Below are positions 7,880-30,310 of a DNA stretch of 64,000 bases, piece after piece. Each line of letters begins with the position of its first letter. The first letter of the stretch is position 1. The notes under the pieces are model-generated. The model saw nothing but the letters and a program-made list of their open reading frames with translations. It had not been told where the DNA came from and did no database searches. The DNA is taken from positions 22,734-86,733 of the forward strand of contig JAYUJN010000040.1 of the NCBI GenBank assembly GCA_043765195.1, given 5' to 3'. Made by a program: the position numbers and the translations under genes. Origin of the DNA: Bacteroidota bacterium. GTDB taxonomy: Bacteria; Bacteroidota; Bacteroidia; UBA7662; JAYUJN01.

Positions 7880-10800
7880 TCAATTCAGAGCCGATAAATC
7901 CACGGCTACCACCTTAGAAACGCCCTGCTCTATCATCGTAATGCCGTACATCACGTCCGTAGTGGTCATGGTTCGTTTGTTGTGGGTAACGATGATAAAC
8001 TGCGAATCTTTGGAAAAATCCTTGATAATGTTGTTGAACTTATCGATGTTGTTGTCGTCTAAGGGCGCATCTACCTCATCAAATATACAAAAAGGCGCTG
8101 GTTTATACAAATAAATGGCAAAAAGCAAAGCCGTAGCCGTCAGGGTTTTTTCACCGCCCGAAAGCTGGTTTATGGTCAGCGGTCGTTTGCCTTTGGGGCG
8201 GGCAATGATGTTTATGTCGCTTTCCAAAATTTCGTTCGGGTTGGTAAGCACCAAATCGCAGGCATCATCTTGGGTAAAAAGGCTGCGAAAAACCCGTTGA
8301 AAGTTGTCTTTTACCTGCACAAAAGTTTGGGTAAAGCGCAAAGTTGCCTCCACGTCTATTTCCGCAATGGTATCCAGCAAAATTTGGCGGGCATTCAAAA
8401 GGTCGTTGCGCTGCTCGTCTATAAACGTATAGCGCTCCGTAGCCTCGTGGTAGGCTTCTATCGCCAGCGGATTGATAGCCCCAAAACCCTCAATTTTGGT
8501 TTTTAGTTGCGCCAAACTTTTGCGCACGTCCGCCTCGTTTTGGGTAGAAACTGGCAAATAAGTGCTAAAACTGCGGGCATCTACCTCAAACTCCACCGCC
8601 AACCGCTCGAGCATACTGGCTTTTTGCAGTTTCAGCTCTGCGCTTCGGTCCTTCATTTGAGTTACCACCTCATCGAGGTTGTCTCGCTTGGTGCGGAGCT
8701 GGCGCACATCGGTTTCCGCCTGCTCTATCTCGCCACGCTGGGCATAATACACCTGCTCTATCTCGCCCAAAGCCGCCTCCATCGCCTGCTTTTGTTCGTA
8801 CATTTCCAGCAAATTATCGTCCGTCAAATCCGTTTTAGACAGTTGCACCTGCGTATCTTCGTCTATTTTCGCGAGCGTTTGCACGTGCGTTTCTATCCTT
8901 TGCGCCGCTTGTTTTTGCTGGCTTTCGTTAAAAAAAAGCTCCCGCTCTATGCCGTTCAATTTGTTGCTCACCTGCAAATACTTAATATTCGCAACATTAA
9001 AAGCCTCCGAACTGGTTCTAAAATCATTTTCTGCCCGCTCAAAGGCAGCCAATCCTTCGCTTTGCACCAGCAAAAACGACGTTTTATGCGCCTGCTTTTC
9101 GGTCAGTTCTGCCTGTTCCCTATCCAAAACTTTGGTTAGTTCCGCTTGCTTTTGGTTCAGCTCATTTTTTCTACCAAAGAGCGAGTTCATAAATCCCTCA
9201 AACTGCTCTTGCTTCGTTTTTACCTTCGTAAATTCGGTGTTTAGCTGGTTTATTTTTTGCTGACAACGCTCTATAATTTGTTTTTTATGGCTGTTTTTTA
9301 GCTGAATGAGGTCGTTTTGTAGGCTCAACTGCTCTGCTTTAAGCCCAGCATTTTGTAGCTCCAAAGCATCTATGTCGAGTGTTAGTTGGTCTAAGTTTCG
9401 TTTTTGCCCCAGCCTTTTACCTTCAAATGCACCCACCGAGCCGCCGCCAATTTTTTGGCTGTTGCCCGCAATCCGACCGTTTAAAGCTACAAAAACACGG
9501 TTTTCATTGCCAGTTTTGTGCATGTGCTGCTCAAAATCTGCCTCATTTTCCACCAAAAAAACGTCTTTGAGCAAAAAATCAAACAGCGGCTTGTATTGCT
9601 TTTCGCAAGACACAAAATGGCTAATTTCTTGCTCTTTCAAAACCCTGTTTTCAACCGCTGCGTAGCTTTCGGCTATAAAAAAGTTGGCTTTGCCTTTTTT
9701 CTCATCGTTCAGCAATGCAATGGCTTGAATGGCTTCGCCTGCGTTATTTACCACAAAATAATTCAAAAAAGGCTCTAAAACCGCACTCAAAGCCACTTTG
9801 TAAGCATCTTCACAGCTTATTACATCGGCGAGTATTTGCGGATTTTGCGCCCAAGTGTTCTTTCGCTTCAAAAATTTGAGCGCATCTGGGTAGCCCTCCA
9901 TGTTCTCTACCAAACTTTTTATGAGGCGCAACTCGTTGCGCTTTGCGTCCATATTTCGGTTTATTTCGGCTAACTTTTGTCGGTTTTCGTCCAGCTTTTG
10001 GTTTTTTTCGTCGGTGGCGGCGTGTAGCTGCGTTTCTTGCTCGAGATAAGTTTCCAGCAAGTCGGTTTGCGCCTCTATTTCTATTTCTAAATCGGTGAGC
10101 AGCAGCCCGAACTGGCTTAGTTCTTGGGTTCGGCTGTTCTGCTCCGTATCCGACCTTTGCAGCTCTTGGTTCACGGCATCGAGCTGAATGGTGTTTACGG
10201 CAATGCTTTTTTCGAGCGCAAAAACCACCCGCTGCACCTCCGCCAACTGTTGCTGGGCGTGGTCTTGGCTTTGTTTGAGTTCTAAATAGTTGTTTTGCGC
10301 CAGCTCACGCTTGTTTTTTTGAAACTCCATCGCCGACTGGTCGGCACTTACCGTAAAATTTTCTACATCAAAGGCATCTTGCAGTTGCTCCTGCTTTTGT
10401 TTAAACGAACTGTAATCGTCGTTGTCTCTTTCAAGTTGTTGGTTTACAAGCGTTTTGCGTTCGTATAGCAAGCGCAGCGTTTCACTTTTTAGCCGCTGGT
10501 CGCTCTCTATCCTACGAATTTCGTTCAAAAACTCATTGGTTGCTTTTTGGCGAGAACTCAGCAGTTTTTCATGGTTTAGCAACGCCAGTTTTTGGCTTTC
10601 GCTCTTGGCTTCCGTTTGCTTTATTTGGGCAGAAATAGCCATTTTTTGGTCAGCTTGCCCCTGCTCGTCCGCTATTAATTTGTCCAGCACATCTCTAAAA
10701 CCCTGCATTGTGTAGTAAGCCGCATCTAAACTAAGGGTTTTGTATTCGGACTTCAACTGGTAAAATTGCTCGGTTCTTTTGGCTTGCTTTTTTAGGGTTT

Positions 10801-11407
10801 CTACGTTTTTTGTAATCTCAAAAAGCAAATCTTCTATGCGCTCCAAGTCCGACTCTGTATCTTTTAGCTTGCTTAATGTCTCTTTTTTGCGGGTTTTGTA
10901 CCTCGAAATGCCCGATGCCTCCTCAAACAACGCACGGCGAGAACCGTCTTTGTCGTTCAAAATATCGTCAATCATTTTCAGCTCAATAATGGCATAGCTA
11001 TCGCTGCCTATGCCCGTATCCAAAAACAGGTTTGTGATGTCTTTCAGCCTACAATTTACGCCATTGAGTTGGTAGCCGCTCTCGCCCGTGCGGTAGAGGC
11101 GGCGGGTTATTTTCACCTCCGTAAATTCGGTGGGCAATATGTTTTTTGTGTTCTCAAAAGTGAGCGATACCTCCGCCAAATTGGCTGGTTTGCGCTTGCT
11201 TGTGCCGTTAAAAATGATGTTTTCCATCTTATCCGAGCGCAAAGCCCGAGTTTTTTGCTCGCCCAGCACCCAGCGCATGGCATCTACCACATTGCTTTTT
11301 CCGCAGCCATTCGGACCCACAATGCCCGTTACGCCCTTATCAAAATGAATTACTGCTTTGTCGCCAAAGCTCTTAAAACCTTTTATTTCTATGTTTCTAA
11401 GCTGCAC
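7880..11407 (-). CDS. smc: chromosome segregation protein SMC
   Basis: N-terminal Walker A (GPNGCGKSNVVDAMRWVLGEQ), long coiled-coil arms and a central hinge. C-terminal signature and Walker B (LSGGEKTLTATALLFAIY...FCIFDEVDAPLD). Confidence 0.95.
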   Translation of the reverse strand: MQLRNIEIKGFKSFGDKAVIHFDKGVTGIVGPNGCGKSNVVDAMRWVLGEQKTRALRSDKMENIIFNGTSKRKPANLAEVSLTFENTKNILPTEFTEVKITRRLYRTGESGYQLNGVNCRLKDITNLFLDTGIGSDSYAIIELKMIDDILNDKDGSRRALFEEASGISRYKTRKKETLSKLKDTESDLERIEDLLFEITKNVETLKKQAKRTEQFYQLKSEYKTLSLDAAYYTMQGFRDVLDKLIADEQGQADQKMAISAQIKQTEAKSESQKLALLNHEKLLSSRQKATNEFLNEIRRIESDQRLKSETLRLLYERKTLVNQQLERDNDDYSSFKQKQEQLQDAFDVENFTVSADQSAMEFQKNKRELAQNNYLELKQSQDHAQQQLAEVQRVVFALEKSIAVNTIQLDAVNQELQRSDTEQNSRTQELSQFGLLLTDLEIEIEAQTDLLETYLEQETQLHAATDEKNQKLDENRQKLAEINRNMDAKRNELRLIKSLVENMEGYPDALKFLKRKNTWAQNPQILADVISCEDAYKVALSAVLEPFLNYFVVNNAGEAIQAIALLNDEKKGKANFFIAESYAAVENRVLKEQEISHFVSCEKQYKPLFDFLLKDVFLVENEADFEQHMHKTGNENRVFVALNGRIAGNSQKIGGGSVGAFEGKRLGQKRNLDQLTLDIDALELQNAGLKAEQLSLQNDLIQLKNSHKKQIIERCQQKINQLNTEFTKVKTKQEQFEGFMNSLFGRKNELNQKQAELTKVLDREQAELTEKQAHKTSFLLVQSEGLAAFERAENDFRTSSEAFNVANIKYLQVSNKLNGIERELFFNESQQKQAAQRIETHVQTLAKIDEDTQVQLSKTDLTDDNLLEMYEQKQAMEAALGEIEQVYYAQRGEIEQAETDVRQLRTKRDNLDEVVTQMKDRSAELKLQKASMLERLAVEFEVDARSFSTYLPVSTQNEADVRKSLAQLKTKIEGFGAINPLAIEAYHEATERYTFIDEQRNDLLNARQILLDTIAEIDVEATLRFTQTFVQVKDNFQRVFRSLFTQDDACDLVLTNPNEILESDINIIARPKGKRPLTINQLSGGEKTLTATALLFAIYLYKPAPFCIFDEVDAPLDDNNIDKFNNIIKDFSKDSQFIIVTHNKRTMTTTDVMYGITMIEQGVSKVVAVDLSALN

Positions 11408-16605: not shown

Positions 16606-17577
16606 ATGTTTCATTTTTTTAAAAAGACGCTTGTACTTGCCTTCGCTTTGGTTGCATTGCAAGGTGTGAATGCGCAAGCGCAAACTTTTCCAGGTTCGCC
16701 CCTCAGAACCATCGCCAACATTACCAGCGAAGATGCCAACGGCGTAGCCGACTCACTCAATGTTCAATGCCAGATTTTGGGCGTGGTAACCAGCATTGAT
16801 TTTATAAACAGTACTTCACTTGGTTTTGCCATTTCGGATACGAGCAGCAAGGCTGGCGTTTTGATATTTACGGCTCTATCTGAACCTAATTTTGGTTATA
16901 CGCCGATTATCGGCGACTTTTTGAACATAAAAGGCAAGGTGATACAAGACAAAGGTCTGATATTTTTTCAGGCATCGGGCTTGACTAAATTGGGTACGAC
17001 CATGCCGCCGAGCCCGATTGTGGTTTCTCGCCCGAGTGCCAGCACCGAAAGCGATTTGGTGGCTATAAACAACCTACAATTGCTCAACCCTGCGCAATGG
17101 CCCAGCAGTTTGGGCGGACCAGATGCCACGGTTTTTGCTACAAATGGCGTGGATAGCGTAGAAATACTGATAGATGCCGACACGGATATACACGGCACTT
17201 TGCCCCCAACGGGCATTTTTCATCTCATTGGCATTGGCGGTCAGCGTGATTTTAATTTCCCTTACTTGGGCAATTACCGCATTTTGCCACGTTTTACGGG
17301 CGATATAAAGACTGGTTTTGGCGTTGGTAGCAATGAAGTTGTAGCCATGAATGATTTTAAGCTGTATCCAAATCCGTTTAAAAACAATTTATTTATAAAA
17401 ACCCAAACCAGCGAGCCATACCAAATATCTATTTCGAATATTTTGGGGCAAGAAATGCTAAAAAGCACGCTACAAAACAATGCAAATATAAGTACTTCGG
17501 AGTTTGCGCAGGGCGTTTATGTGGTTCAAATAACCCGTAACGGCAAAACCCAGACTTCGAAACTAATATGCGAATAA
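16606..17577 (+). CDS. T9SS C-terminal sorting domain-containing secreted protein
   Basis: N-terminal signal peptide. The C-terminal ~80 aa (LYPNPFKNNLFIKT...GVYVVQITRNGKTQTSKLI) match the type-A Por secretion CTD consensus. Confidence 0.7.
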   Translation: MFHFFKKTLVLAFALVALQGVNAQAQTFPGSPLRTIANITSEDANGVADSLNVQCQILGVVTSIDFINSTSLGFAISDTSSKAGVLIFTALSEPNFGYTPIIGDFLNIKGKVIQDKGLIFFQASGLTKLGTTMPPSPIVVSRPSASTESDLVAINNLQLLNPAQWPSSLGGPDATVFATNGVDSVEILIDADTDIHGTLPPTGIFHLIGIGGQRDFNFPYLGNYRILPRFTGDIKTGFGVGSNEVVAMNDFKLYPNPFKNNLFIKTQTSEPYQISISNILGQEMLKSTLQNNANISTSEFAQGVYVVQITRNGKTQTSKLICE

Positions 17578-20847: not shown

Positions 20848-20977
20848 TGCTAAAAATTTGTGTGCAAAAATACGCCAAAACCACGATTTTTTGTAAGCCG
20901 CACAATAAAATACCATTTAAAACCTTTTTTAGCGTAAATTTGTATAGTAATGGCACAGAGAACGTAAATTTATAAGC

Positions 20978-23137
20978 ATGAAACGAATTGTTGTAGAACG
21001 CATAAAAGGTTATTTGCACAAGTATTTTGAACTTACCGACCACATTCCGACCCACGACTGGCGGCAAAATGAGTGGCAAACGGAGGTAAATTTGGCGGAT
21101 TTTTTATGGAGGTTGGCGGAAACAGACCACAACGAAAAAATTGGGTTTATAGAGCAATATTTGACCACAACTGACTTTGAAGAACTGCTAAAAAACATAG
21201 GCGCACCCTGCATTGTTTTTGATAAAAACAACGACTATCAGCCCATCATTATAGCCCAAGAACGCAAAAGTAGCACGAGGAATAAAGTCATTTTTTTGAG
21301 CATTGACAAAGAAACTGGCGAGGCACAATACATTGATATTAAGGCATTTGGCGCTTTTAATTTGGCTACGGTAGCCGACCTTGCACTGAACTTTAACTAT
21401 ACCATAAAAAACCAAGAAACGACCAAAGATACCGATATTTTTACGGTTGCATCTTACAGCATTTTGCCGTATTTTGAGCAAGGAAACGATGCAAGTGCAA
21501 AGAAAAAAAATCCTTTTCAAAAACTGCTCGCACTTTTAGCCGCCGACAAAAGAGAGATTTGGTATGTGTATTTTTATGCCATTTTGTCGGGGCTTATCAG
21601 CGTACTTTTACCGCTTAGTATGCAGGCTATCGTAAATTATGTGTCTGGTGGCGAAATTTTGAACGTGATTATGGTGCTTATTATAGCCGTAATTTTGGGT
21701 ACTGTGATAGCTGGCGTGCTGCAAATAGTGCAAATGACGCTCGTAGAAGTGCTGCAAAGGCGTATTTTTGTAAAAATTGCGTTTGAATACGCCTACCGCA
21801 TACCCCGCATCAAAGAAAGTGCGCTGCACAATTATTTTACGCCCGAGCTGGTAAACCGTTTTTTTGATGTGCTAACTATACAAAAATCGCTGCCCAAGGT
21901 ACTCATAGACATTACCTCCAACACCTTACAAATTGTTTTTGGGTTGATATTGCTTTCGTTTTACCACCCATTTTTTGTCGGTTTGAGCTTTGTGCTTATC
22001 ATTATTTTGTTTTTAATTTTTAGGTTTATGGGACCCAAAGGCTTGCAAACCAGCCTTTTGGAGTCGGATTACAAATACAAACTGGTGCATTGGCTGCAAG
22101 AAGTAGCCAAGTCGGCGCACTCGTTTAAAATTGCGGGCTTTACCAATGCGCCGATACACAAAACCGATTTTTTGGTACGCAACTACCTAAACGCCCGCTC
22201 CAAGCATTTTCAGATTTTGCGCACGCAATACAGCGCACTTGTGGTTTTTAAGGTGCTTATCATCGCCAGTTTGCTCATTTTTGGTACGGTGCTGGTAACG
22301 GAGCGCACCATTTCGCTGGGTCAGTTTTTGGCAACGGAGGTGGTGGTGGTGCTGCTGCTGGGTGCGGTAGAAAAACTAATACTAAGCCTCGATGTAGTGT
22401 ACGACATACTTACTGCCTGCGAAAAAGTATCGAAACTAACGAATTTACCCTTAGAAAAACAGGGCGGATTGCAGTTTCCGAAGCAAAACACGAAGCAAGG
22501 CGTGGCACTAAAAACGACCAACCTGAGCCTAAAACTGCCGCAGCACAGCCATAAAATTTTGGAAAACATCAACTTTGAAATCAAAGAAAACGAAAAAATT
22601 TGGGTTCGGGGCGATGCCGAAAAATTAAAGGCATTTTCGCAGGTTTTGCAGGGTTTTTATGACTACGGAGGCAATATGCGCATAGATGGGCTGCCCTCGA
22701 GGGAGATTGGCTTGACGCATTGGCGGGATATACTGAGCGCAAACTACCACAAAAACGAGATTTTTGAGGGCAGCATAGAAGAAAATATCAGCATGGGCAA
22801 GAACCACATTACGTTGCAAGATGTGTTTTGGGCGGTAGAAAAAACAGGATTAGCCGACTGGGTTTATGCCCTACCCGACGGGCTGCGCACGCCGATTTTG
22901 GCGGGCGGAAAAGGCATAGCCGAGGCGCATTGTAGCCAAATAATGGTGGCGAGGTGCATTGCCGAGCGACCAAGAATGGTGATTTTTAACACTGAATTTA
23001 TACAAGATTTGCCGCCTGAAACACAAAAAAACATCATAAACTTGCTTTTTGATGCCGAAAACAAATGGTCGCTCTTGCTTTTTTGTAACGATGAGCGCAT
23101 AGGTAAAAATTGCGATAAAACGTTTTTAATAACATAA
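20978..23137 (+). CDS. ABC-exporter-like protein with an N-terminal C39-like domain and a degenerate nucleotide-binding domain
   Basis: N-terminal ~160 aa of unknown function, with no Cys/His protease motif. It has a six-helix ABC exporter transmembrane domain. The C-terminal NBD-like region has Walker A replaced by VRGDAEKLKAF, a signature LAGGKG and Walker B replaced by VIFNTEF. Confidence 0.6.
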   Translation: MKRIVVERIKGYLHKYFELTDHIPTHDWRQNEWQTEVNLADFLWRLAETDHNEKIGFIEQYLTTTDFEELLKNIGAPCIVFDKNNDYQPIIIAQERKSSTRNKVIFLSIDKETGEAQYIDIKAFGAFNLATVADLALNFNYTIKNQETTKDTDIFTVASYSILPYFEQGNDASAKKKNPFQKLLALLAADKREIWYVYFYAILSGLISVLLPLSMQAIVNYVSGGEILNVIMVLIIAVILGTVIAGVLQIVQMTLVEVLQRRIFVKIAFEYAYRIPRIKESALHNYFTPELVNRFFDVLTIQKSLPKVLIDITSNTLQIVFGLILLSFYHPFFVGLSFVLIIILFLIFRFMGPKGLQTSLLESDYKYKLVHWLQEVAKSAHSFKIAGFTNAPIHKTDFLVRNYLNARSKHFQILRTQYSALVVFKVLIIASLLIFGTVLVTERTISLGQFLATEVVVVLLLGAVEKLILSLDVVYDILTACEKVSKLTNLPLEKQGGLQFPKQNTKQGVALKTTNLSLKLPQHSHKILENINFEIKENEKIWVRGDAEKLKAFSQVLQGFYDYGGNMRIDGLPSREIGLTHWRDILSANYHKNEIFEGSIEENISMGKNHITLQDVFWAVEKTGLADWVYALPDGLRTPILAGGKGIAEAHCSQIMVARCIAERPRMVIFNTEFIQDLPPETQKNIINLLFDAENKWSLLLFCNDERIGKNCDKTFLIT

Positions 23138-23138
23138 A

Positions 23139-24482
23139 ATGGAACAAAACAACGAAGTAGAAAAGTACAAACGCTACCAGTTTTCGTCGATAGAGCAGGT
23201 AAGTACGCCCAAAACTTTGGTGTACGGCGCACGGGTTTCGATAGGCATCGCCTTGTTTTTTTTGGGTATCTTGTTTGTTCCGTGGCAGCAAAACATCAAG
23301 GGGTTTGGGTCTTTGACCATACTTAGCCCCCAAGACCGCCCGCAAGATTTGCAAAGCCCGATACCTGGCAGGATAGAAAAGTGGTTTGTGCCAGAGGGCA
23401 GTTTGGTGAAAAAAGGCGATACGATTGTGTTTATTTCGGAGGTAAAAGACGAGTATTTCGACCCCAAAATTACGTTTAGGTTAGATGAGCAAATTGTAGC
23501 CAAAAGAAATGGTTTGCAGGCGATTGACAACAAAATAAATGCTTTGAACAGCCAAATATCGGCACTAAATGATGGGTTGAAACTGACTGTGGCTAAGACG
23601 AAAAACAAGGTAAAACAGGTGAGTTTTAAGCTAAAATCGGATAGTATAGAGTATGTAGCCGCCCAAACCGACAATAAAATAGCCAAGGAACAGGTGCTGC
23701 GCCAAGAAAAACTGTACGAGCAGGGTTTGAAATCGCTTACGGAGCTGGAAAGTCGGCGTTTGAAGTTTCAGGAGAGTACCGCCAAACTTATTTCTACCGA
23801 AAACAAGCTGCTTACGGCACGCAACGAACTGATAAATGCCCGCATAGAGCTTGGGTCGGTGGAGGCGGAATATAGGGACAAAATTGCGAAATCGGAGTCG
23901 GATAAAAGCTCGAGTTTTGCGTATAAATACGAAATAGAAACCGAAATAAGCAAGCTGCAAAACAAGCTGAGTAGCGTGGAAACACGCCAAGATTTGTATT
24001 GTGTAAAAGCACCGCAAACGGGTTATTTGATAAAAGCACACAAGCAAGGCATCGGCGAAAACATCAAAGAGGGCGAGGCGATAGCGACTATTTTGCCTCA
24101 AAATGGCGAAAAAGCCGTGGAACTTTACGTAAAAGCAATGGATTTGCCGCTTTTGAAGCCTGGCATAAAAGTGCGGTTGGAGTTTGACGGGTTTCCTGCG
24201 TTGCAGTTTTCGGGCTGGAACGGCATTTCGGTGGGAACTTTTGGCGGAAAAATAGCCGTGATAGACAATGTACAAACCGAACCCTCGAAGTACCGCATAC
24301 TTGTAATACCCGACCCCGACGACCAAGCCTGGCCCGAGCAATTGCGGGTGGGTTCGGGCAGCTATGGCTGGGCGATGCTCAACGATGTACCCGTTTGGCG
24401 TGAGCTGTGGCGGCAGCTAAACGGTTTCCCGCCCGACCTACCGAATGTGCCGAGCGCAGGTGGTAGTAAAAAAAAGAGTTAA
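23139..24482 (+). CDS. HlyD family membrane-fusion (periplasmic adaptor) protein
   Basis: N-terminal TM helix, a biotinyl-like lipoyl half-domain (IEKWFVPEGSLVKKGDTIVFI) and a long coiled coil. Starts 2 nt after the ABC gene stop. Confidence 0.8.
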   Translation: MEQNNEVEKYKRYQFSSIEQVSTPKTLVYGARVSIGIALFFLGILFVPWQQNIKGFGSLTILSPQDRPQDLQSPIPGRIEKWFVPEGSLVKKGDTIVFISEVKDEYFDPKITFRLDEQIVAKRNGLQAIDNKINALNSQISALNDGLKLTVAKTKNKVKQVSFKLKSDSIEYVAAQTDNKIAKEQVLRQEKLYEQGLKSLTELESRRLKFQESTAKLISTENKLLTARNELINARIELGSVEAEYRDKIAKSESDKSSSFAYKYEIETEISKLQNKLSSVETRQDLYCVKAPQTGYLIKAHKQGIGENIKEGEAIATILPQNGEKAVELYVKAMDLPLLKPGIKVRLEFDGFPALQFSGWNGISVGTFGGKIAVIDNVQTEPSKYRILVIPDPDDQAWPEQLRVGSGSYGWAMLNDVPVWRELWRQLNGFPPDLPNVPSAGGSKKKS

Positions 24483-24501
24483 AAAAACACAGCCAATTAG
24501 T

Positions 24502-25911
24502 ATGAAACATATTTTAACGATGGTTTTTGTGGTGTTTTGGGGCAATGGCGCATTTACGCAGAGCCTAAAAACGGATAGCAGTTATTTTTTGAGCCTCACG
24601 GAGCTGCACCAAATTATTTTGGTGGAGCACCCGATGGTGCAGCGGGCTAACCTTTTGCCGAAACAAGCCCAAAGCCTGATAATGATGGCAAAAGGGAGTT
24701 TTGACCCCGTAGTGGCGGGCGATTTTTCGCAAAAGACGTTTAAAAGCAAAACTTATTGGACTTTTTCTGATGCTTATTTTAAAATTCCGACCTGGATTGG
24801 CGCAGATATAAAGCTGAATTGGCAACAAAATAGCGGCGATTTTTTGGACCAAAGCGACCAAACGCCCCGCACGGGGCTGAACTACGCAGGCATTGCGCTA
24901 CCCATAGGCAGGGGGCTGCTCATAGACCAGCGCAGAGCCAGCCTGATGCAGGCGAAATCTTTTTTGGAGCAAAACCAAGCCGAGCAAGCCGCCATGGTAA
25001 ACAAAATTATGCTGCAAGCCAGCAAAGATTTTGCGGTTTGGTACACGGCGTACAAAAGTTTTTTGTTTATAAACGATGCCTATATTTTGGCAAACCAGCG
25101 TGCCGACCAAGTGAAACAAAGGGTGGTGCTGGGCGATGCCGCCGCCATAGACAGCGTGGAAGCCGTGGTGGCTGCCCAGCAGCGGCTGCTGGAGCGCACC
25201 GCAGCGCAGTTGGAGTTGTATTTGAACAATGTAAATATATCCAATTATTTGTGGAAAAACAACCAACCCATTCAGATTGAGCCGAGCGTTTACCCGATTT
25301 TTAACACCGAAAACACCAGTGCGCTGCTGCCCGATTCGTTGCTGAATGCCATTAAATTTGCGAGGGAAACGCACCCCAACCTGCAAAAAATTAGGTTTAA
25401 AGGCGAAATTTTAGAAACAGAACGCCGTTTAGCCCGAGAAATGCTAAAACCACAGCTCAACCTCGAGGCAGGAATTTTGCAGCAAAACCCCGTTTTTTCG
25501 CAAACGATTACCAGTAATTTTATACAAAACAACTACAAACTGGGCGCATCTGCCTACATTCCGATTTTTTTGCGCAAGGAGCGTGGCAAGCTCAACCTGA
25601 GTAATTTTAAAATAAAAGAGAACGATTTGGAGCTTTCGTTTGGCTACCAAACCATACAAAACGACCTAAGAATGGCGTTTGAGCAGATAAAAACACTGGA
25701 AGCGCAACTGCAACTTGCCCAGCGCATGATAACCAACTACGAAACGCTGCGCAACGGCGAAAAAATAAGGTTTGACAACGGCGAAAGCTCTGTTTTTTTG
25801 ATTAATGCCCGAGAAGCCAAGCTCTTAGAAGCAGAAGTAAAATACGCCGAACTGCAGGGAAAACTCCAAAAAGCCATCGCCGAGTGGCGGTTTGCACTTG
25901 GCGGTTTTTAA
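24502..25911 (+). CDS. TolC family outer-membrane efflux protein
   Basis: Signal peptide and two tandem TolC-type repeat halves with coiled-coil/alpha-barrel periodicity. Third gene of the ABC-HlyD-TolC operon. Confidence 0.7.
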   Translation: MKHILTMVFVVFWGNGAFTQSLKTDSSYFLSLTELHQIILVEHPMVQRANLLPKQAQSLIMMAKGSFDPVVAGDFSQKTFKSKTYWTFSDAYFKIPTWIGADIKLNWQQNSGDFLDQSDQTPRTGLNYAGIALPIGRGLLIDQRRASLMQAKSFLEQNQAEQAAMVNKIMLQASKDFAVWYTAYKSFLFINDAYILANQRADQVKQRVVLGDAAAIDSVEAVVAAQQRLLERTAAQLELYLNNVNISNYLWKNNQPIQIEPSVYPIFNTENTSALLPDSLLNAIKFARETHPNLQKIRFKGEILETERRLAREMLKPQLNLEAGILQQNPVFSQTITSNFIQNNYKLGASAYIPIFLRKERGKLNLSNFKIKENDLELSFGYQTIQNDLRMAFEQIKTLEAQLQLAQRMITNYETLRNGEKIRFDNGESSVFLINAREAKLLEAEVKYAELQGKLQKAIAEWRFALGGF

Positions 25912-25970: not shown

Positions 25971-26070
25971 GAATTGTGTCTGCAGTGCGGACATAATTCG
26001 GAGGGTGAATGATAAAAACCAGTAGGATTTAAGTCAATTTTGAATTGTGCCCGCAGTGCGGACACAATTC
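25971..26070. repeat. pair of 29-bp imperfect palindromes (direct copies)
   Basis: gaattgtgtctgcagtgcggacataattc (25971-25999) and gaattgtgcccgcagtgcggacacaattc (26042-26070). Both are preceded by ttttgaattgtg. They lie in the 310-bp gap between tolC and the AT-rich island. Confidence 0.7.
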
Positions 26071-26221
26071 AGTTAGATGGACTGGTAGCCCAAACTACTA
26101 ACTTTTTTATTTTCAATAATTAAAAAATAAAACCTATAAAATTTGCAGATTGCAAAAAAATGGTTTAGATTTGTAGGGTAGTGTAAAATGTGCCTGTGTA
26201 CATGGATTAGCTATCATTATT

Positions 26222-27490
26222 ATGACCCACAAGCAGGAACTTTTCAAAAACTACCTAATCAAAAAAATTGGCTTCATTGAGGACACTTTTTTGAATAAGT
26301 ATATTCCGCTTCTTGAAGCGGCTAGCCCTAAACTTAAACTCTTAGGTAAACAGAAAAAAGTGTGGAGTGAAGATAGACAAAGATATTTGCCAGAAAAAGA
26401 AGACAGTCACAATACATACATTGAAAAAGAAAATTATTTCATACCTGAAAAATTCAATGTTATAGACCTCCTGAACATTGAACTTAACACTAAAAAAAGT
26501 AACGACTACACGTCAAAAGATTTAAATCTAAAATTTATTTCAGCGACTGACATATCAAACTTTACATACTGCCCAGTGAGTTTTGCAATCTCTAAAACTT
26601 TTGAATTGCCAAAACTCGAATCAGCAATTTTGGGAACATCACAACATGAAAAACAAATATTAATTAGGTGTTTGCGACCTTCTATAGCAAATGAATATAT
26701 TTCGTTCCATGATGCGATGATGACGGACTTCACTAGATTTGAAAATCCATTTTCACTCCATTCAGTTTTAAACGATGAAAATAAATTATTTTTTGACGAA
26801 CTAAGCGAATCATCAGTCATTTTCTATGGACACCACAATAACGAAACTAAAAACAAATATTTTAAAAGCACCAATGGAGGTTTTGTTGGGCAACCTGACT
26901 ATATTTTTAAAAACGATACCACAAACGATATTTTTGTGGTAGAAGAAAAATTCCAATTCGTGCCTAAAGACCCGTCAAATTTTTATTATAGCTCTTATTC
27001 TGAGGAGGAAGAAAAAAAAATTATAGAAAAAAGAACAAGGAAGTCTTTTTTCAACAATCATATTAATCAATTAAGCTCATATATTTACGGCATTGGAGAA
27101 TATGACATTAGGTATGGCTACCTGGTTTATTGGAAATATGAACTTGATAATAAAAATCCAAATATTGTCGGATGTGACGTTTTACGAATAGAAAAAACTG
27201 AAAACGGAAGGAAACAAATTAGAGATATATTTATCAGTCTTAAAAAATTGATAACAGATAAAAGTGGAGTTTTTGACATAGATAAACGAGTTCCAGCTAA
27301 GTGTGCAAATTGTGTTTCAAATCTTCTTTGCGGACATAAAACAGGAAGATTTACTGCTTTTAGCGTACCATATTCAAAGGACTACTTGAAAATATATTTT
27401 GCTCCATTTCCAGAGGGACTTAAAAAAGAAGTTCTGCCGACAGAATCAAACTCAACATCTGCACAAACACCAACTGACAGCCCACCATAA
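26222..27490 (+). CDS. Cas4/RecB-like PD-(D/E)xK nuclease with a predicted 4Fe-4S cluster (DUF83-type)
   Basis: Motif order matches Cas4/AddB nuclease domains: an N-proximal Cys (NFTYCPVSF), motif II D (GQPDYIF), motif III ExK (VVEEKF), a QhxxY motif (NQLSSYIYG) and C-terminal C-x2-C-x5-C (CANCVSNLLC). AT-rich codon usage unlike the flanking genes. Confidence 0.6.
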   Translation: MTHKQELFKNYLIKKIGFIEDTFLNKYIPLLEAASPKLKLLGKQKKVWSEDRQRYLPEKEDSHNTYIEKENYFIPEKFNVIDLLNIELNTKKSNDYTSKDLNLKFISATDISNFTYCPVSFAISKTFELPKLESAILGTSQHEKQILIRCLRPSIANEYISFHDAMMTDFTRFENPFSLHSVLNDENKLFFDELSESSVIFYGHHNNETKNKYFKSTNGGFVGQPDYIFKNDTTNDIFVVEEKFQFVPKDPSNFYYSSYSEEEEKKIIEKRTRKSFFNNHINQLSSYIYGIGEYDIRYGYLVYWKYELDNKNPNIVGCDVLRIEKTENGRKQIRDIFISLKKLITDKSGVFDIDKRVPAKCANCVSNLLCGHKTGRFTAFSVPYSKDYLKIYFAPFPEGLKKEVLPTESNSTSAQTPTDSPP

Positions 27491-27611
27491 CGGCATAAAA
27501 TAGACGGTTTTGCAACAGTGCTGCTAACGAAAGTCATTAAACATTAATACATCTATTCCCCTTCTTCGCAAATACCCAAAACATTGATGCCAACCTTAAA
27601 ACAACAACACG

Positions 27612-28619
27612 ATGGATAAAAAACGACCAATAGACAAAAAAAGAGAATCTGGTGGATACACTGATATTGGAACTCTTGAAGACGGCGCCATTGTAGAAAT
27701 GAAAGAAATAGCTGGAAGATTTTTGATTATCAAAGAACGTTCAATATATGAAATGATTTTTGCGGACAAAATAGACCCAGCAAGAACGAATATAAATTTA
27801 CCCAATACAATTCACAAACTCATTATAGATAAGGGGACAGAGTCTGAATTAGTTGCAAGGACTTTATTAACAGCAAAGACAGTTTTTAAAAAAGAATACT
27901 TAAACGATAGAATAAACTGCAATTCCGTTTTGAGTCTATGTGTTGATTTGCTGTCAGAACTTTCACTATTAGAAAAAGAAATAAAAGAATACTTAGACGA
28001 AGAAAATAAAGTATCGCTTGAATACGAAAAAAGAAGAAATGAAAAAGTTTCTTTCCAACTTCCTGCTATCATAAATTTGGAATCAAGGTGTAAAACTATT
28101 TATCAAAAAACTGACCACATTGAACAAACCCTAATGGAGATAATAACTTATTTTTATCCTAACAAACAATTGACAAAACAATCCCATTTCCCAAAGTTTC
28201 ACGAAGTATTAAAGGTAAAATATGGAGAAAATGACGGTTTTTCAAAGTTTATTGGTAAGAAAGCTTGTTTTATGAGAGTTATTAGAGAATTAAGAAATGG
28301 ACTTGACCATAGGCTTGCAACATACAAAGTTACAGATTTTGAATTAAAACCTGACGGCGATATTCTTTCACCTACAATTGAACTTAATCACAAAGACGTG
28401 AAAGTTGAACGAATATCACTTAGTGAATTTCTAAGAATTACATCCAGTAATTTAATTGAAATTATTGAAGTAACTTTTGCGTTTCTTGCAGGACGTGCTG
28501 TAAAAACGACAGGAATGCCTTACCAACTCAGGGAAATTCCAAAAGAAAAAAGACGACACAAATTTGTAAGATTTTGTTTTTGGATGCCAATTGGTGTTGA
28601 AGGATATTATTGTCAATAA
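27612..28619 (+). CDS. hypothetical protein with a HEPN-like Rx4H motif
   Basis: No family recognised. Contains RELRNGLDHR, which fits the HEPN Rx4-6H RNase motif, in a predicted helical context. AT-rich. Confidence 0.3.
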   Translation: MDKKRPIDKKRESGGYTDIGTLEDGAIVEMKEIAGRFLIIKERSIYEMIFADKIDPARTNINLPNTIHKLIIDKGTESELVARTLLTAKTVFKKEYLNDRINCNSVLSLCVDLLSELSLLEKEIKEYLDEENKVSLEYEKRRNEKVSFQLPAIINLESRCKTIYQKTDHIEQTLMEIITYFYPNKQLTKQSHFPKFHEVLKVKYGENDGFSKFIGKKACFMRVIRELRNGLDHRLATYKVTDFELKPDGDILSPTIELNHKDVKVERISLSEFLRITSSNLIEIIEVTFAFLAGRAVKTTGMPYQLREIPKEKRRHKFVRFCFWMPIGVEGYYCQ

Positions 28620-28796
28620 ATAAAGGCTACCACCAACATCAAACCATTGCAAACTATGCGTAATATTGAGTTTGGTGTTATTTTGGGCTTGTTATAAGGC
28701 GCTTTGAGCTGGGGCAAGTTTATGTATCACTCCAAAAACACGCACTATAATTGAAACGAAAAATCATAAATTTGCAACCATATTCAACCAAATAAA

Positions 28797-29669
28797 ATGA
28801 GCAAGAAATTAATACGATTTGATTGGGCTATAAAACGACTTTTAAGAAACAAAGCTAATTTCGTTGTTTTAGAAGGCTTTTTGAGCGAACTGTTGTTTGA
28901 TAACATTAAAATTGAGCAAATTTTAGAAAGTGAAAGCAACCAAGAAACAGACGATGACAAATTTAATCGTGTGGATATTTTAACTCAAAATTCAAAGAAT
29001 GAACTCATCATTATTGAAATTCAAAGCAGTTACGAAATTGATTATTTCCACAGAATGGCTTACGGTGTTTCAAAAAGTATTACTGAAAACCATAAATTAG
29101 GCAGTAAATACAAAGAAATCAAAAAAGTAATTTCTGTAAACATCGTTTACTTTGACCTCGGACAGGGACAAGACTACATTTACAGGGGAAAAACAAACTT
29201 TATTGGACTTCACCAAAAAGACTTGTTGGCATTATCTGATAAGCAAAAAAGTACGTTTATAAAAGAAAACGTATCTGATATTTTTCCAGAATTTTATTTG
29301 TTGAAAGTTAATCAATTCAACGACGTTGCAAAAGACACTTTGGACGAGTGGATTTACTTTTTGAAAAACAGCGAAGTAAAAGATGATTTTAAAGCCAAAG
29401 GACTCAAAGAAGCAGGCGAAGTATTGGATATTATGCGACTTGAAAAACAAGACGTATATGGCTACAATCGTTATATGGATAGTTTGAGTTTGAAAGCCAG
29501 TGAAATTTTTACTTTACAAACTGAGGCAGAGTTTAAAGCAATGGATGCGAGGAGTATTGAAATTGCTGAAAATGGAATTATTGAGGGTTTTGACAACTTG
29601 ACAATTGGTAAAATGACAAAATTGTCAATAGAAAAAATTGAAGAATTACGAATTAAACTAAACAAATAA
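28797..29669 (+). CDS. Rpn/YhgA-family PD-(D/E)xK recombination-promoting nuclease (putative transposase)
   Basis: N-terminal FDWAIKRLL...FLSELL matches the TIGR01784-type FDYAFKxLF start. It has a D...E-I-Q/K core (RVDILTQNSKNELIIIEIQ) and a C-terminal repeated KLSIEKIEEL-like helix. Confidence 0.7.
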   Translation: MSKKLIRFDWAIKRLLRNKANFVVLEGFLSELLFDNIKIEQILESESNQETDDDKFNRVDILTQNSKNELIIIEIQSSYEIDYFHRMAYGVSKSITENHKLGSKYKEIKKVISVNIVYFDLGQGQDYIYRGKTNFIGLHQKDLLALSDKQKSTFIKENVSDIFPEFYLLKVNQFNDVAKDTLDEWIYFLKNSEVKDDFKAKGLKEAGEVLDIMRLEKQDVYGYNRYMDSLSLKASEIFTLQTEAEFKAMDARSIEIAENGIIEGFDNLTIGKMTKLSIEKIEELRIKLNK

Positions 29670-29701
29670 ACCCCCACCCAAACAGAAACCCTACCCCCAA
29701 A

Positions 29702-30310
29702 TCACTCGGCGCTTTTTTCGTTTAGCATTCCAGAGCCGCTGTTGAGGCTAAAATTCATTTGCCAGTTCACCGAAAGCGACATTTGTTTGAGCATTTCGTT
29801 TAGCTGCTGCTGGGCGGTTACAAACAAGTGGCTTTCCTTTACCTTTTGCGCTATTTCTGCCTTGGCTTGCTGCTGCATTTCGGTGAGCTGCTCGGGCGAA
29901 AAACGACTAAACGCATTGGCATCTAAGTCATAAAACTTTACGTTGGTGTCTATGGATAAAATTTCGGGCTCGGGCAAATAATCTATAATCAACTGGCGTG
30001 AACCCTCGGTGGCGGTGTAGCGAAACTTCGCAAAATCAAAGCCTACCAGAACCTTGGAATTGGTAAGCAATATGGCTTTTTTGTTGTTCGTAAATGCGCC
30101 CCACATCACTGGTTCTGTGGTTTTAAAATCATGGATTTCCGAAAAATGCCCCTCCGCCAGCACCACTTTAAACACCTTTTCGATGCGCTCGAGCAGCACA
30201 TTGCTCTCCTTTTTTAGGTTGTGCTGGTTGTTTTTATAATAATTATTATAAATCAATACCGCTATCATACCCAATAAAAGCCCCATAAATGCAATAATAA
30301 GATAACCCAT
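29702..30310 (-). CDS. membrane-anchored hypothetical protein (DUF4230-like)
   Basis: N-terminal TM helix (YLIIAFMGLLLGMIAVLI) followed by a soluble ~170-aa domain. The DUF4230 family assignment is by resemblance only. Confidence 0.35.
   Translation of the reverse strand: MGYLIIAFMGLLLGMIAVLIYNNYYKNNQHNLKKESNVLLERIEKVFKVVLAEGHFSEIHDFKTTEPVMWGAFTNNKKAILLTNSKVLVGFDFAKFRYTATEGSRQLIIDYLPEPEILSIDTNVKFYDLDANAFSRFSPEQLTEMQQQAKAEIAQKVKESHLFVTAQQQLNEMLKQMSLSVNWQMNFSLNSGSGMLNEKSAE

What the first reader, a model, noticed from the sequence alone, without database searches (positions are those of the whole stretch)
20978..25911. Tripartite ABC-HlyD-TolC exporter whose ABC component seems to lack a functional ATPase
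Three genes are tightly linked, with a 2-nt gap and then a 20-nt gap. The transmembrane domain of the first protein is a typical six-helix ABC exporter domain. Its C-terminal nucleotide-binding domain retains the overall length, but Walker A is VRGDAEKLKAF (no GxxGxGKS/T), the signature is LAGGKG, Walker B is NTEF and there is no H-loop His. The N-terminal 160-aa domain lacks the Cys/His of C39 peptidases. Either the energy source comes in trans from another NBD, or this is a non-canonical secretion or sensing complex.
Basis: seen in the sequence. Interest (0 to 1): 0.65.

Follow-up and report, generated by a model that had tools for sequence, protein, structure and literature searches.

The report
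ABC exporter with a dead ATPase
A three-gene envelope-spanning export system from an uncultured Bacteroidota bacterium has an ABC "motor" protein that has lost every ATP-binding and ATP-splitting motif yet is still kept by natural selection, and its hundreds of relatives also lack the catalytic residues, so this type of pump probably does not run on ATP hydrolysis.

Summary
Genes 20978-23137 (ABC), 23139-24482 (HlyD-type adaptor) and 24502-25911 (TolC-type channel) form one operon. The ABC protein has a normal exporter membrane domain and a confidently folded nucleotide-binding-domain (NBD) remnant. The remnant lacks the A-loop Tyr, Walker A, Q-loop Gln, LSGGQ, the Walker B Asp-Glu pair, the H-loop His and about 24 C-terminal residues.

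It is neither an error nor a pseudogene. The identical protein occurs on 7 contigs, and relatives at 92% and 60% identity share the defects. NBD dN/dS is 0.09.

The main new result is context. The gene belongs to a large Bacteroidota family (at least 588 loci in a species-representative genome set, usually TetR-ABC-HlyD-TolC). In that family Walker A is kept, but Asn-Asp replaces Asp-Glu, Asn replaces the H-loop His, and LSGGQ is absent. The membrane domain is more conserved than the NBD.

No second ABC or NBD gene is conserved nearby, and none lies within about 74 kb here.

Best reading: the NBD is now a structural pseudo-enzyme domain, and transport or gating is driven by something other than ATP hydrolysis, most likely proton or gradient coupling. 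That energy source is inferred, not shown.

The true equivalent is IAEAH.

The parts
20917..20977 (.). 61-nt intergenic region between the divergent glycosyltransferase gene and the ABC gene; putative promoter region
   Evidence: Sequence read. It contains TAAATTTG and TAAATTTA, which resemble the Bacteroidetes -7 promoter motif TAnnTTTG (own knowledge; inference only). The TetR gene that precedes the ABC gene in 50/82 related loci is absent here.
20978..23137 (+). ABC exporter-fold protein, 719 aa: N-terminal domain, six-helix membrane domain and a non-catalytic NBD remnant
   Evidence: ORF. PF00664 only. Full-length NCBIfam PCAT/NHLP/HlyB/CydC models align through residues ~175-700 but far below their cut-offs. 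AF2 model: mean pLDDT 83. Foldseek best matches are PCAT1 (E 1e-28) and HlyB. The identical protein occurs on 7 contigs.
20978..21502 (+). N-terminal cytoplasmic domain (aa 1-175), an orphan alpha/beta domain in the position of a C39 or C39-like domain
   Evidence: AF2 pLDDT 81. Only a weak fold match to the HlyB N-terminal domain (E 0.08, prob 0.93, TM 0.43) and to papain-like folds. No Pfam or PDB sequence match. No conserved Cys/His. dN/dS 0.20.
21503..22447 (+). Transmembrane domain (aa 176-490), type IV (type I exporter) ABC fold; the most conserved part of the protein
   Evidence: PF00664 at 37 bits. 54% identity to the family, against 33% for the NBD. dN/dS 0.039. Family-invariant ionisable residues sit in hydrophobic cores: K425, E454, E465, K466 and H330.
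22448..23137 (+). NBD remnant (aa 491-719) that keeps the fold but none of the nucleotide-binding or catalytic motifs
   Evidence: PF00005 at 15.1 bits, below the cut-off of 25. pLDDT about 85-93. dN/dS 0.091. 47 of 81 family-conserved positions are kept; the losses cluster at Walker A, Walker B, the H-loop and the C-terminus.
22535..22537 (+). A-loop position: Leu520 instead of the adenine-stacking Tyr
   Evidence: Family 'LSYKYP' versus window 'LSLKLP'. Register taken from the ABCB1 alignment, 'FSYP'.
22604..22636 (+). Walker A remnant VRGDAEKLKAF (aa 543-553)
   Evidence: Aligned to the family G-x4-GK[TS]. In the AF2 model, strand 540-545 runs almost directly into helix 547-558, so no P-loop remains.
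22751..22753 (+). Q-loop position: Lys592 instead of Gln
   Evidence: Alignment column census. The flanking 'IFEGSIEENI' segment, which faces the membrane domain in known structures, is conserved.
22916..22930 (+). True signature (C-loop) equivalent IAEAH (aa 647-651)
   Evidence: Profile alignment to ABCB1 places LSGGQ opposite family 'LSxSx'. Window residues.
22976..22996 (+). Walker B remnant MVIFN-T-E (aa 667-673), with a one-residue insertion
   Evidence: Family 'LLILN-D' versus canonical 'ILLLDE'. The sister lineage has 'IFNTQ', so the Glu is not conserved within the clade.
23087..23089 (+). H-loop position: Asn704 instead of His
   Evidence: Family 'VSNDP' versus canonical 'IAHR'.
23139..24482 (+). 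HlyD-family periplasmic adaptor (membrane fusion protein), 447 aa
   Evidence: HlyD_3 at 37.9 bits and Biotin_lipoyl_2. TIGR01843 type_I_hlyD E 3.8e-21, below its cut-off. Median 48.6% identity to family orthologues, higher than the ABC protein. dN/dS 0.09.
24502..25911 (+). Outer-membrane factor (TolC/OEP family), 469 aa with a signal-peptide-like N-terminus
   Evidence: PF02321 at 97.9 bits, two repeats. Third gene of the trio in nearly all related loci long enough to show it.
25876..25905 (+). Terminator-like hairpin followed by a T-run at the end of the OEP gene
   Evidence: Consensus scan: 11-bp stem with 6 GC pairs. This is a pattern match only.

Best explanation
This is a working, selectively maintained member of a large Bacteroidota family of PCAT/T1SS-type tripartite systems (ABC exporter-fold protein, HlyD adaptor, TolC-type channel). 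In this family the NBD stopped being an ATP-hydrolysing motor.

Shown at family level: the NBD keeps a P-loop and the A-loop Tyr, so it probably still binds ATP. It has Asn-Asp for the Walker B Asp and catalytic Glu, Asn for the H-loop His, and no LSGGQ.

Shown for the window lineage: it has gone one step further and lost the P-loop, the A-loop Tyr and the C-terminal about 24 residues. It keeps the NBD fold, the segment that in known structures faces the membrane domain, and an almost unchanged membrane domain.

Inferred: the NBD remnant now serves as a structural pseudo-enzyme domain that docks the coupling helices and holds the dimer together.

Inferred: the complex still forms an inner-membrane-to-outer-membrane conduit, probably for a small molecule. 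The arguments are the TetR regulator in most relatives and the absence of any conserved peptide or RTX cargo gene.

Most speculative step: alternating access or gating of the membrane domain is driven by something other than ATP hydrolysis. The most plausible source is protonation of the invariant intramembrane E454/E465/K425/K466 cluster or the substrate's own gradient, as in the proton-driven ABC-fold transporter SbmA.
For: Motif loss.

The fold is retained. NBD pLDDT is about 85-93, and the whole chain superposes on PCAT1, HlyB, TmrAB and TM287/288.

Not an artefact or a pseudogene:
- The identical protein occurs on 7 contigs from several assemblies.
- Lineages at 92% and 60% identity have intact ORFs and the same defects.
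- dN/dS is 0.039 for the membrane domain, 0.091 for the NBD and 0.197 for the N-terminal domain at dS about 0.45. HlyD has dN/dS 0.09.

The whole family is degenerate:
- 0/118 closest relatives and 1/88 genome loci have a Walker B Asp-Glu pair.
- 0/118 and 1/88 have an H-loop His.
- None has LSGGQ.
- The Walker A Lys is kept in 112/118.
- According to the review PMC7756269, Glu-to-Asp changes in ABCB1 leave only residual ATPase.

Conservation is inverted relative to ordinary ABC exporters. Membrane domain 64%, NBD 46%, N-terminal domain 24% mean pairwise identity.

Operon. The ABC-HlyD-OEP trio is found in nearly all related loci long enough to show it, with a TetR gene 4 nt upstream in 50/82. 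There is a single ABC gene per locus and no conserved trans NBD. There is no conserved small-peptide ORF, and the large surface proteins in the window are T9SS cargo.

The membrane domain keeps the family-invariant intramembrane charged residues.

Precedent for a proton-driven ABC-type membrane fold: SbmA (PMC8442886, PMC13316013).
Against: - No biochemical data exist. Non-canonical sites sometimes keep slow hydrolysis at family level, and the window protein could bind a different ligand.
- Proton coupling rests only on conserved charged residues in hydrophobic segments and on analogy.
- Only about 74 kb of the genome was inspected, so a partner ABC protein elsewhere cannot be excluded.
- The substrate is unknown.
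- In the sister lineage the ABC gene is separated from HlyD-OEP, so the three proteins need not always act together.
- The window lineage lacks the TetR gene.
Confidence: 0.5

Rival explanations
1. Energy is supplied in trans. The protein heterodimerises with a canonical ABC half-transporter, or recruits a free NBD, encoded elsewhere in the genome. This would resemble heterodimeric exporters with one degenerate site.
For: Heterodimeric exporters with a degenerate site are common (TM287/288, TmrAB, TAP; PMC7756269; structural hits). Only about 74 kb of the genome could be inspected. The best NCBIfam hits are to the NHLP two-ABC export system, though far below cut-off.
Against: - There is one ABC gene per locus across 82 related loci.
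- A canonical ATPase lies within 10 kb in only 6 loci of one subgroup, on the opposite strand, next to what look like an adaptor gene and an outer-membrane-factor gene of its own; 2 other loci hold an ABC-F-like gene.
- There is no ABC NBD in the window or in 10 kb upstream.
- Known heterodimer partners are operon neighbours (own knowledge).
- This protein is degenerate on both faces: Walker A/B/H and the C-loop 'IAEAH'. A canonical partner would therefore still face a defective signature in its own site.
Confidence: 0.15
2. The ABC-fold protein no longer transports anything. It acts instead as a sensor, regulator, gate or scaffold, by analogy with SUR or CFTR. It might gate or anchor the HlyD-TolC duct, or signal through its N-terminal domain.
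For: - The orphan N-terminal cytoplasmic domain is conserved in position but unrelated in sequence to known domains.
- In the sister lineage the ABC gene stands alone while HlyD-OEP sits beside another adaptor gene.
- The NBD remnant is retained under selection without any enzymatic motif.
Against: - The membrane domain is the most constrained part (dN/dS 0.04; 54% identity to the family) and keeps all family-invariant pore and coupling residues. This fits a conserved translocation function.
- The trio architecture is identical to that of hundreds of relatives.
- No signalling output domain or partner gene is conserved nearby.
Confidence: 0.2
3. The gene is a decaying pseudogene, or the operon is in the course of being lost in this strain.
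For: All catalytic motifs are lost, the C-terminus is truncated and the branch is long. The TetR gene is lost. The clade is rare: a single 50%-identity cluster among 1.84 billion representatives.
Against: - Full-length ORFs are intact in three lineages that have diverged to saturation at synonymous sites (dS>2).
- NBD dN/dS is 0.09 and membrane-domain dN/dS is 0.04.
- No frameshift or internal stop is present, and the other frames are full of stops.
- The partner genes are equally constrained.
Confidence: 0.03
4. The apparent motif loss is an assembly or sequencing artefact.
For: The sequence comes from metagenome assemblies.
Against: The identical 719-aa protein is found on 7 contigs from independent ENA and NCBI assemblies. 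The changes are substitutions spread over 229 residues, not frame changes.
Confidence: 0.01

Closest known systems
Peptidase-containing ABC transporters (PCAT1, ComA, bacteriocin and NHLP exporters)
   Same: Same overall architecture: an N-terminal cytoplasmic domain, a six-helix type IV membrane domain and a C-terminal NBD. These give the best structural matches (PCAT1 9azl_A, E 1e-28) and the best NCBIfam alignments (TIGR03797, TIGR03796, TIGR01193).
   Different: - All NCBIfam scores are far below the family cut-offs (113 versus 709-853 bits).
- The N-terminal domain has no C39 sequence signal and no catalytic Cys/His.
- No GG-leader peptide gene lies nearby.
- The NBD lacks every catalytic motif.
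HlyB-HlyD-TolC type I secretion system (C39-like-domain type)
   Same: Tripartite ABC, HlyD adaptor and TolC-type channel. The N-terminal domain is non-proteolytic, and its only fold match, a weak one, is to the HlyB N-terminal domain (8dck_A). The HlyD protein matches the type_I_hlyD model.
   Different: - HlyB is a canonical ATPase whose H-loop His and catalytic Glu are essential (own knowledge; PMC6222333 abstract). Here both are absent.
- No RTX-type cargo gene is present, and the large neighbours are T9SS cargo.
- A TetR regulator is present in most relatives.
- TolC is encoded inside the operon.
Heterodimeric type IV ABC exporters with one degenerate site (TM287/288, TmrAB, TAP1/2, LmrCD)
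   Same: The same kinds of substitution define the degeneracy: Asp for the catalytic Glu, a non-His residue in the H-loop, and an altered signature (PMC7756269). These proteins are also strong structural matches.
   Different: Those systems always keep one canonical site, contributed by a second ABC gene in the same operon. Here there is a single ABC gene, both faces of the NBD are degenerate, and in the window lineage Walker A is gone. A homodimer therefore has two dead sites.
SbmA/BacA (SLiPT) proton-driven peptide transporters
   Same: They are a precedent that an ABC-exporter-like membrane fold can work as a secondary, proton-driven transporter without ATP (PMC8442886, PMC13316013). This is what the present system may work like.
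   Different: SbmA has no NBD, is an importer and is not part of a tripartite assembly. No sequence membership was detected (only PF00664 hits). Proton coupling is untested here.
CFTR and SUR (ABC proteins turned channel or regulator)
   Same: They are examples of the ABC exporter fold being re-purposed, so that nucleotide-binding sites gate or regulate rather than pump (own knowledge).
   Different: They are eukaryotic full-length proteins that still bind ATP and hydrolyse it at one site. The window protein has no nucleotide site at all.

Membership tests
ABC ATPase / ABC_tran NBD (PF00005) | Walker A GxxGxGK[ST] | tested here: not met
   Window 'RGDAEKLKA', sister lineage 'QSSDFDKLE'; relatives keep G-x4-GK. 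No such motif in any frame.
ABC ATPase / ABC_tran NBD (PF00005) | Signature (C-loop) LSGGQ | tested here: not met
   The equivalent is 'IAEAH', with the register fixed by the ABCB1 alignment. Family 'LSxSx' is also non-canonical.
ABC ATPase / ABC_tran NBD (PF00005) | Walker B hhhhD followed by the catalytic Glu | tested here: not met
   'VIFN-T-E' with an insertion. The family has Asn-Asp (Asn 91/118, Asp 112/118).
ABC ATPase / ABC_tran NBD (PF00005) | H-loop His, Q-loop Gln and A-loop aromatic residue | tested here: not met
   N704, K592 and L520 respectively.
ABC ATPase / ABC_tran NBD (PF00005) | Pfam gathering score | tested here: not met
   15.1 bits against a cut-off of 25 for the isolated domain; no hit in the full-length scan.
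ABC ATPase / ABC_tran NBD (PF00005) | NBD fold and homology | tested here: met
   Full-length ABC models align through residues 480-700. AF2 pLDDT is about 85-93. Foldseek aligns 540-730 columns to PCAT1, HlyB and TmrAB.
ABC ATPase / ABC_tran NBD (PF00005) | ATP binding and hydrolysis | not testable with these tools
   Needs purified protein.
Type IV (type I exporter) ABC membrane domain, PF00664 | Six-helix ABC_membrane domain above the gathering score, with exporter fold | tested here: met
   37 bits against a cut-off of 28, spanning profile positions 2-274. TM-scores of 0.8-0.86, normalised by the length of the solved chain, to exporter structures.
PCAT (peptidase-containing ABC transporter) | N-terminal C39 peptidase domain with catalytic Cys and His | tested here: not met
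   No PF03412 hit for any of 30 family N-terminal domains. No conserved Cys/His.
PCAT (peptidase-containing ABC transporter) | Adjacent GG-leader peptide substrate gene | tested here: not met
   No conserved small ORF within 1.5 kb of the trio in about 80 loci.
HlyB-type T1SS (C39-like-domain class) | C39-like fold of the N-terminal domain | tested here: inconclusive
HlyB-type T1SS (C39-like-domain class) | HlyD-family adaptor and TolC-family channel encoded with the ABC gene | tested here: met
   Pfam HlyD_3 and OEP above cut-off. Same order in nearly all related loci long enough to show it. The NCBIfam type_I_hlyD and TolC models match only below their cut-offs.
HlyB-type T1SS (C39-like-domain class) | RTX or other C-terminal-signal protein cargo | tested here: not met
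   None in the window; the large proteins carry T9SS sorting domains. The only conserved neighbour is TetR.
Heterodimeric ABC exporters with one degenerate site | Second ABC half-transporter gene in the operon that supplies a canonical site | tested here: not met
   One ABC gene per locus. None elsewhere in the window.
SbmA/BacA (SLiPT) | Sequence membership; membrane domain only, without an NBD | tested here: not met
   Only PF00664 matched, and an NBD-fold domain is present.
SbmA/BacA (SLiPT) | Proton-motive-force-driven transport | not testable with these tools
   Only indirect evidence: invariant K425, E454, E465 and K466 in hydrophobic cores.

The most novel reading that the evidence does not exclude
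A whole Bacteroidota family of tripartite 'ABC' exporters, present in hundreds of species, does not use ATP hydrolysis at all. In this reading the ABC exporter fold works as a secondary (proton- or gradient-driven) transporter or as a gated channel, coupled to a HlyD adaptor and a TolC duct. The NBD would be kept as an ATP-sensing or purely structural module. The window lineage, which has lost even the P-loop under purifying selection, would be nature's own Walker A knockout showing that nucleotide binding is dispensable.
Probability: 0.35. Interest if true: 0.85.

Novelty: new variant of a known kind. Interest (0 to 1): 0.68.

Why it matters
Tripartite efflux and type I secretion systems are classified by the energy source of their inner-membrane component: ABC uses ATP, while RND and MFS use the proton gradient (PMC8277102). 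An ABC-fold component that is kept by selection without any nucleotide site falls outside that scheme. So does a family of hundreds of species without catalytic residues.

It would give a natural system for asking how an ABC exporter membrane domain can cycle or gate without ATP, and what a pseudo-NBD does. It is also a warning that automatic annotations such as 'ATP-binding cassette domain-containing protein' or 'xenobiotic-transporting ATPase' are probably wrong about activity for this family.

Several family members are cultured (Rhabdobacter, Fulvivirga, Ohtaekwangia, Pontibacter, Arcicella). The question is therefore directly testable.

Tried and rejected
1. Hidden or mis-registered motifs. 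Six-frame regex scans of the window and a three-frame translation of the NBD region found no Walker A or LSGGQ.
2. Trans NBD. I scanned 82 related loci (10 kb either side), the whole window and 10 kb upstream. Only a MacB/LolD-like ATPase turned up, in one subgroup. The downstream extension added nothing.
3. Pseudogene. Rejected by the per-domain dN/dS values.
4. More members of the Walker-A-less clade. None was found in the JGI metagenome scan (best 38% identity), in the species-representative genome scan (best 42%), or in 1.84 billion representatives (next hit after the sister lineage is 35%).
6. Cargo gene. No conserved small ORF was found. The large neighbours are T9SS cargo.
7. Taxonomy. 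SucC relatives are only unnamed Bacteroidota or Bacteroidia MAGs at no more than 78% identity outside the lineage's own clade (91-100%).
8. Literature. Six full-text searches found no description of this family, and none of a homodimeric exporter with two dead sites.
9. The sigma-70 promoter scan is uninformative for Bacteroidota.

Full report
**1. What is there**

Three ORFs lie head to tail on the + strand:
- 20978-23137, 719 aa;
- 23139-24482, 447 aa, 1 nt after the first;
- 24502-25911, 469 aa, 19 nt after the second.

Pfam assigns them as follows. The first matches ABC_membrane only (37 bits, residues 195-464). The second matches HlyD_3 and Biotin_lipoyl_2. The third matches OEP (97.9 bits, two repeats). 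A terminator-like hairpin overlaps the end of the third gene.

Upstream lies a divergently transcribed GT4 glycosyltransferase. Downstream lies a low-GC island. The window comes from an uncultured Bacteroidota lineage. T9SS sorting domains are frequent in it. Its SucC protein has only unnamed Bacteroidota or Bacteroidia relatives, at no more than 78% identity outside its own clade (91-100%).

**2. The NBD is a remnant**

PF00005 does not hit the full protein at E<1. The last 229 residues alone score 15.1 bits (E 0.036; cut-off 25), spanning profile positions 2-132. Relatives score 57-59 bits.

Full-length NCBIfam ABC models (NHLP, bacteriocin, HlyB, MsbA, CydC) align through residues ~480-700, far below their cut-offs. 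The domain is therefore homologous to an NBD.

AlphaFold2 with a 92-sequence alignment gives mean pLDDT 83, and about 85-93 across the NBD. Foldseek superposes the chain on PCAT1, HlyB, TmrAB, TM287/288 and MsbA.

**3. Motif by motif**

The register comes from alignments to 118 relatives and from a profile alignment to ABCB1.

| Motif | Canonical or family form | Window protein |
|---|---|---|
| A-loop | family 'LSYKYP' | 'LSLKLP' (L520) |
| Walker A | family G-x4-GK[TS] | 'RGDAEKLKA' |
| Q-loop | Gln | K592 |
| Signature | canonical LSGGQ, family 'LSxSx' | 'IAEAH' |
| Walker B | canonical 'ILLLDE', family 'LLILN-D' | 'VIFN-T-E' |
| H-loop | canonical 'IAHR', family 'VSND' | 'FCND' (N704) |

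- At Walker A, the model shows strand 540-545 running almost directly into helix 547-558, so no phosphate-binding loop is left.
- The sister lineage has 'IFNTQ' at Walker B, so the Glu is not conserved within the clade.
- No D-loop is present.
- The last ~24 residues of the family NBD are missing.
- No alternative frame hides these motifs.

**4. Not an artefact and not a pseudogene**

The identical 719-aa protein is carried by 7 contigs from several ENA and NCBI assemblies, the longest being 264,930 bp.

Two further lineages share the defects and have intact ORFs:
- P0001, 92% identical, found on 4 contigs with the same synteny;
- P0002, 60% identical, found on 3 contigs including GCA_043777395.1.

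Nei-Gojobori dN/dS between the window gene and the P0001 gene, at dS about 0.45:

| Region | dN/dS |
|---|---|
| Membrane domain | 0.039 |
| NBD remnant | 0.091 |
| N-terminal domain | 0.197 |

The HlyD gene gives 0.09. Against P0002, synonymous sites are saturated. Even so, the membrane domain is 80% identical and the NBD 52-53%.

**5. The family context, the main new result**

They come from Cytophagales (Fulvivirga, Chryseolinea, Ohtaekwangia, Cyclobacteriaceae, Arcicella, Pontibacter and others), Saprospiraceae, Lewinellaceae and Crocinitomicaceae. The best hit is only 42% identical.

Gene order:
- In nearly all loci long enough to show it, the order is ABC-HlyD-OEP on one strand, with a single ABC gene.
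- In 50/82 loci a TetR-family gene (PF00440 above cut-off) ends 4 nt upstream.

Motif census:
- The Walker A Lys is kept in 112/118 close relatives.
- The Walker B Asp position is Asn in 91/118 and Asp in 15/118.
- The catalytic-Glu position is Asp in 112/118.
- The H-loop His position is Asn in 110/118.
- The Q-loop Gln is present in only 40/118.
- Among 88 genome and metagenome loci, one has Asp-Glu, one has an H-loop His, and none has LSGGQ.

Conservation is inverted relative to ordinary ABC exporters. Mean pairwise identity is 64% for the membrane domain, 46% for the NBD and 24% for the N-terminal domain.

The family as a whole is therefore predicted to bind ATP but to hydrolyse it poorly. 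In ABCB1, Glu-to-Asp changes leave only residual ATPase (PMC7756269).

The window clade is the extreme case. It keeps 47 of 81 family-conserved NBD positions. The losses cluster at the nucleotide-contacting motifs. The 'IFEGxIxENI' segment, which faces the membrane domain in known structures, is kept.

The clade is small. It forms a single 50%-identity cluster among 1.84 billion representatives, and the next NBD is 35% identical. More distant relatives show other, independent kinds of decay, with the Walker A Lys replaced by Thr, Gln or Glu.

**6. Trans energy source**

- The only GxxxxGK[ST] in the 64 kb window belongs to SMC.
- Ten kb further upstream holds no ABC gene.
- A canonical ABC ATPase lies within 10 kb in 6/82 related loci, all in one subgroup. 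It is on the opposite strand, next to what look like an adaptor gene and an outer-membrane-factor gene of its own.
- Both faces of this NBD are degenerate, so even a canonical partner would not restore a fully canonical composite site.

**7. N-terminal domain and cargo**

The 175-residue domain folds confidently (pLDDT 81). It has no Pfam or PDB sequence relative. Only L46, P77 and P89 are conserved. Its best fold match is the HlyB C39-like domain, at a non-significant E of 0.08 and TM 0.43. One subfamily (Pontibacter, Saprospiraceae) lacks the domain altogether.

No conserved small-peptide ORF flanks the trio. The large proteins in the window are T9SS cargo. Together with the TetR regulator, this points to a small-molecule substrate. 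That is an inference.

**8. Mechanism**

Shown:
- The NBD cannot be a conventional ATPase or ATP binder.
- It is nevertheless constrained.
- The membrane domain and the partner genes are intact and constrained.

Inferred:
- The NBD remnant is a structural pseudo-enzyme domain.
- The complex still conducts a substrate from the inner membrane to the outside.

Most speculative: cycling or gating is driven by protonation or by the substrate gradient. Two observations support this. First, family-invariant K425, E454, E465-K466 and H330 lie in hydrophobic cores. Second, SbmA shows that an ABC-type membrane fold can be proton-driven (PMC8442886, PMC13316013).

In the sister lineage the ABC gene is separate from HlyD-OEP, which sit beside another adaptor gene. 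This leaves room for a gate, scaffold or sensor role.

**9. Comparison and novelty**

Architecturally this is a PCAT/HlyB-type tripartite system. It fails the defining tests for an ABC ATPase, for a C39 peptidase and for a heterodimeric degenerate-site exporter.

Six full-text literature searches found no description of this family. They also found no description of a single-gene exporter with both sites dead. The standard review classifies tripartite pumps by ATP, RND or MFS energisation (PMC8277102).

I rate it a new variant of a known kind. It is of substantial interest because cultured family members make the question directly testable.

Noticed in passing
window 26000-30000: A low-GC island (0.325-0.34 against about 0.45) lies directly downstream of the operon. 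ORF 26222-27490 has a Cas4-like PD-(D/E)XK nuclease match (PADLOC E 3e-8) and a C-terminal Cys cluster. ORF 27612-28619 has no hit. ORF 28797-29669 is a PDDEXK_2 (Rpn-type) protein. This may be an acquired defence or mobile island.
   Followed up: partly
window 46797-52118 (+), 56326-63849 (-), 16606-17577 (+): Two very large surface proteins (1773 aa, and 2507 aa with 17 SdrD_B repeats) and a 323-aa protein all end in the T9SS C-terminal sorting domain. They are T9SS cargo, not T1SS cargo.
   Followed up: partly
proteins P0297, P0303, P0315, P0319, P0333, P0354: More distant PCAT-like relatives have the Walker A Lys replaced by Thr, Gln or Glu (GxxGxG[TQE]ST) but keep an H-loop His. This is a different and apparently independent pattern of NBD decay in neighbouring families.
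   Followed up: no
L001-L003 and L098-L100 (GCA_043777395.1): In the 60%-identical sister lineage the ABC gene sits alone among envelope and glycan genes (acyltransferase, EamA, PIG-L, BshC, Wzy_C). Its HlyD (72% identical) and OEP genes lie on another contig, directly after a second, unrelated adaptor gene and a partial OEP gene.
   Followed up: partly
L057, L058, L064, L070, L072, L073, L077, L079-L085, L088-L095: A subfamily of about 575-590 aa (Pontibacter, Adhaeribacter, Saprospiraceae, Lewinellaceae, Crocinitomicaceae) lacks the N-terminal domain. Its Walker B pair is variable (Asp-Asp, Glu-Asp, Glu-Glu, Asp-Asn). It still has no LSGGQ and no H-loop His.
   Followed up: partly
window 20917-20977: The 61-nt divergent intergenic region contains TAAATTTG and TAAATTTA, which resemble the Bacteroidetes -7 promoter motif TAnnTTTG. 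The TetR gene found here in most relatives is absent.
   Followed up: no
L025, L029, L034, L042, L044, L071 (about 2.4 kb upstream of the ABC gene, - strand): In the Marinoscillum/Ekhidna group a MacB/LolD-like ABC ATPase (about 237 aa) lies next to the family operon, together with genes that look like an adaptor gene and an outer-membrane-factor gene. This looks like a separate efflux system rather than a partner.
   Followed up: no
window 7880-11407 (-): An SMC chromosome-segregation ATPase (1175 aa) carries the only P-loop motif in the whole 64 kb window.
   Followed up: yes
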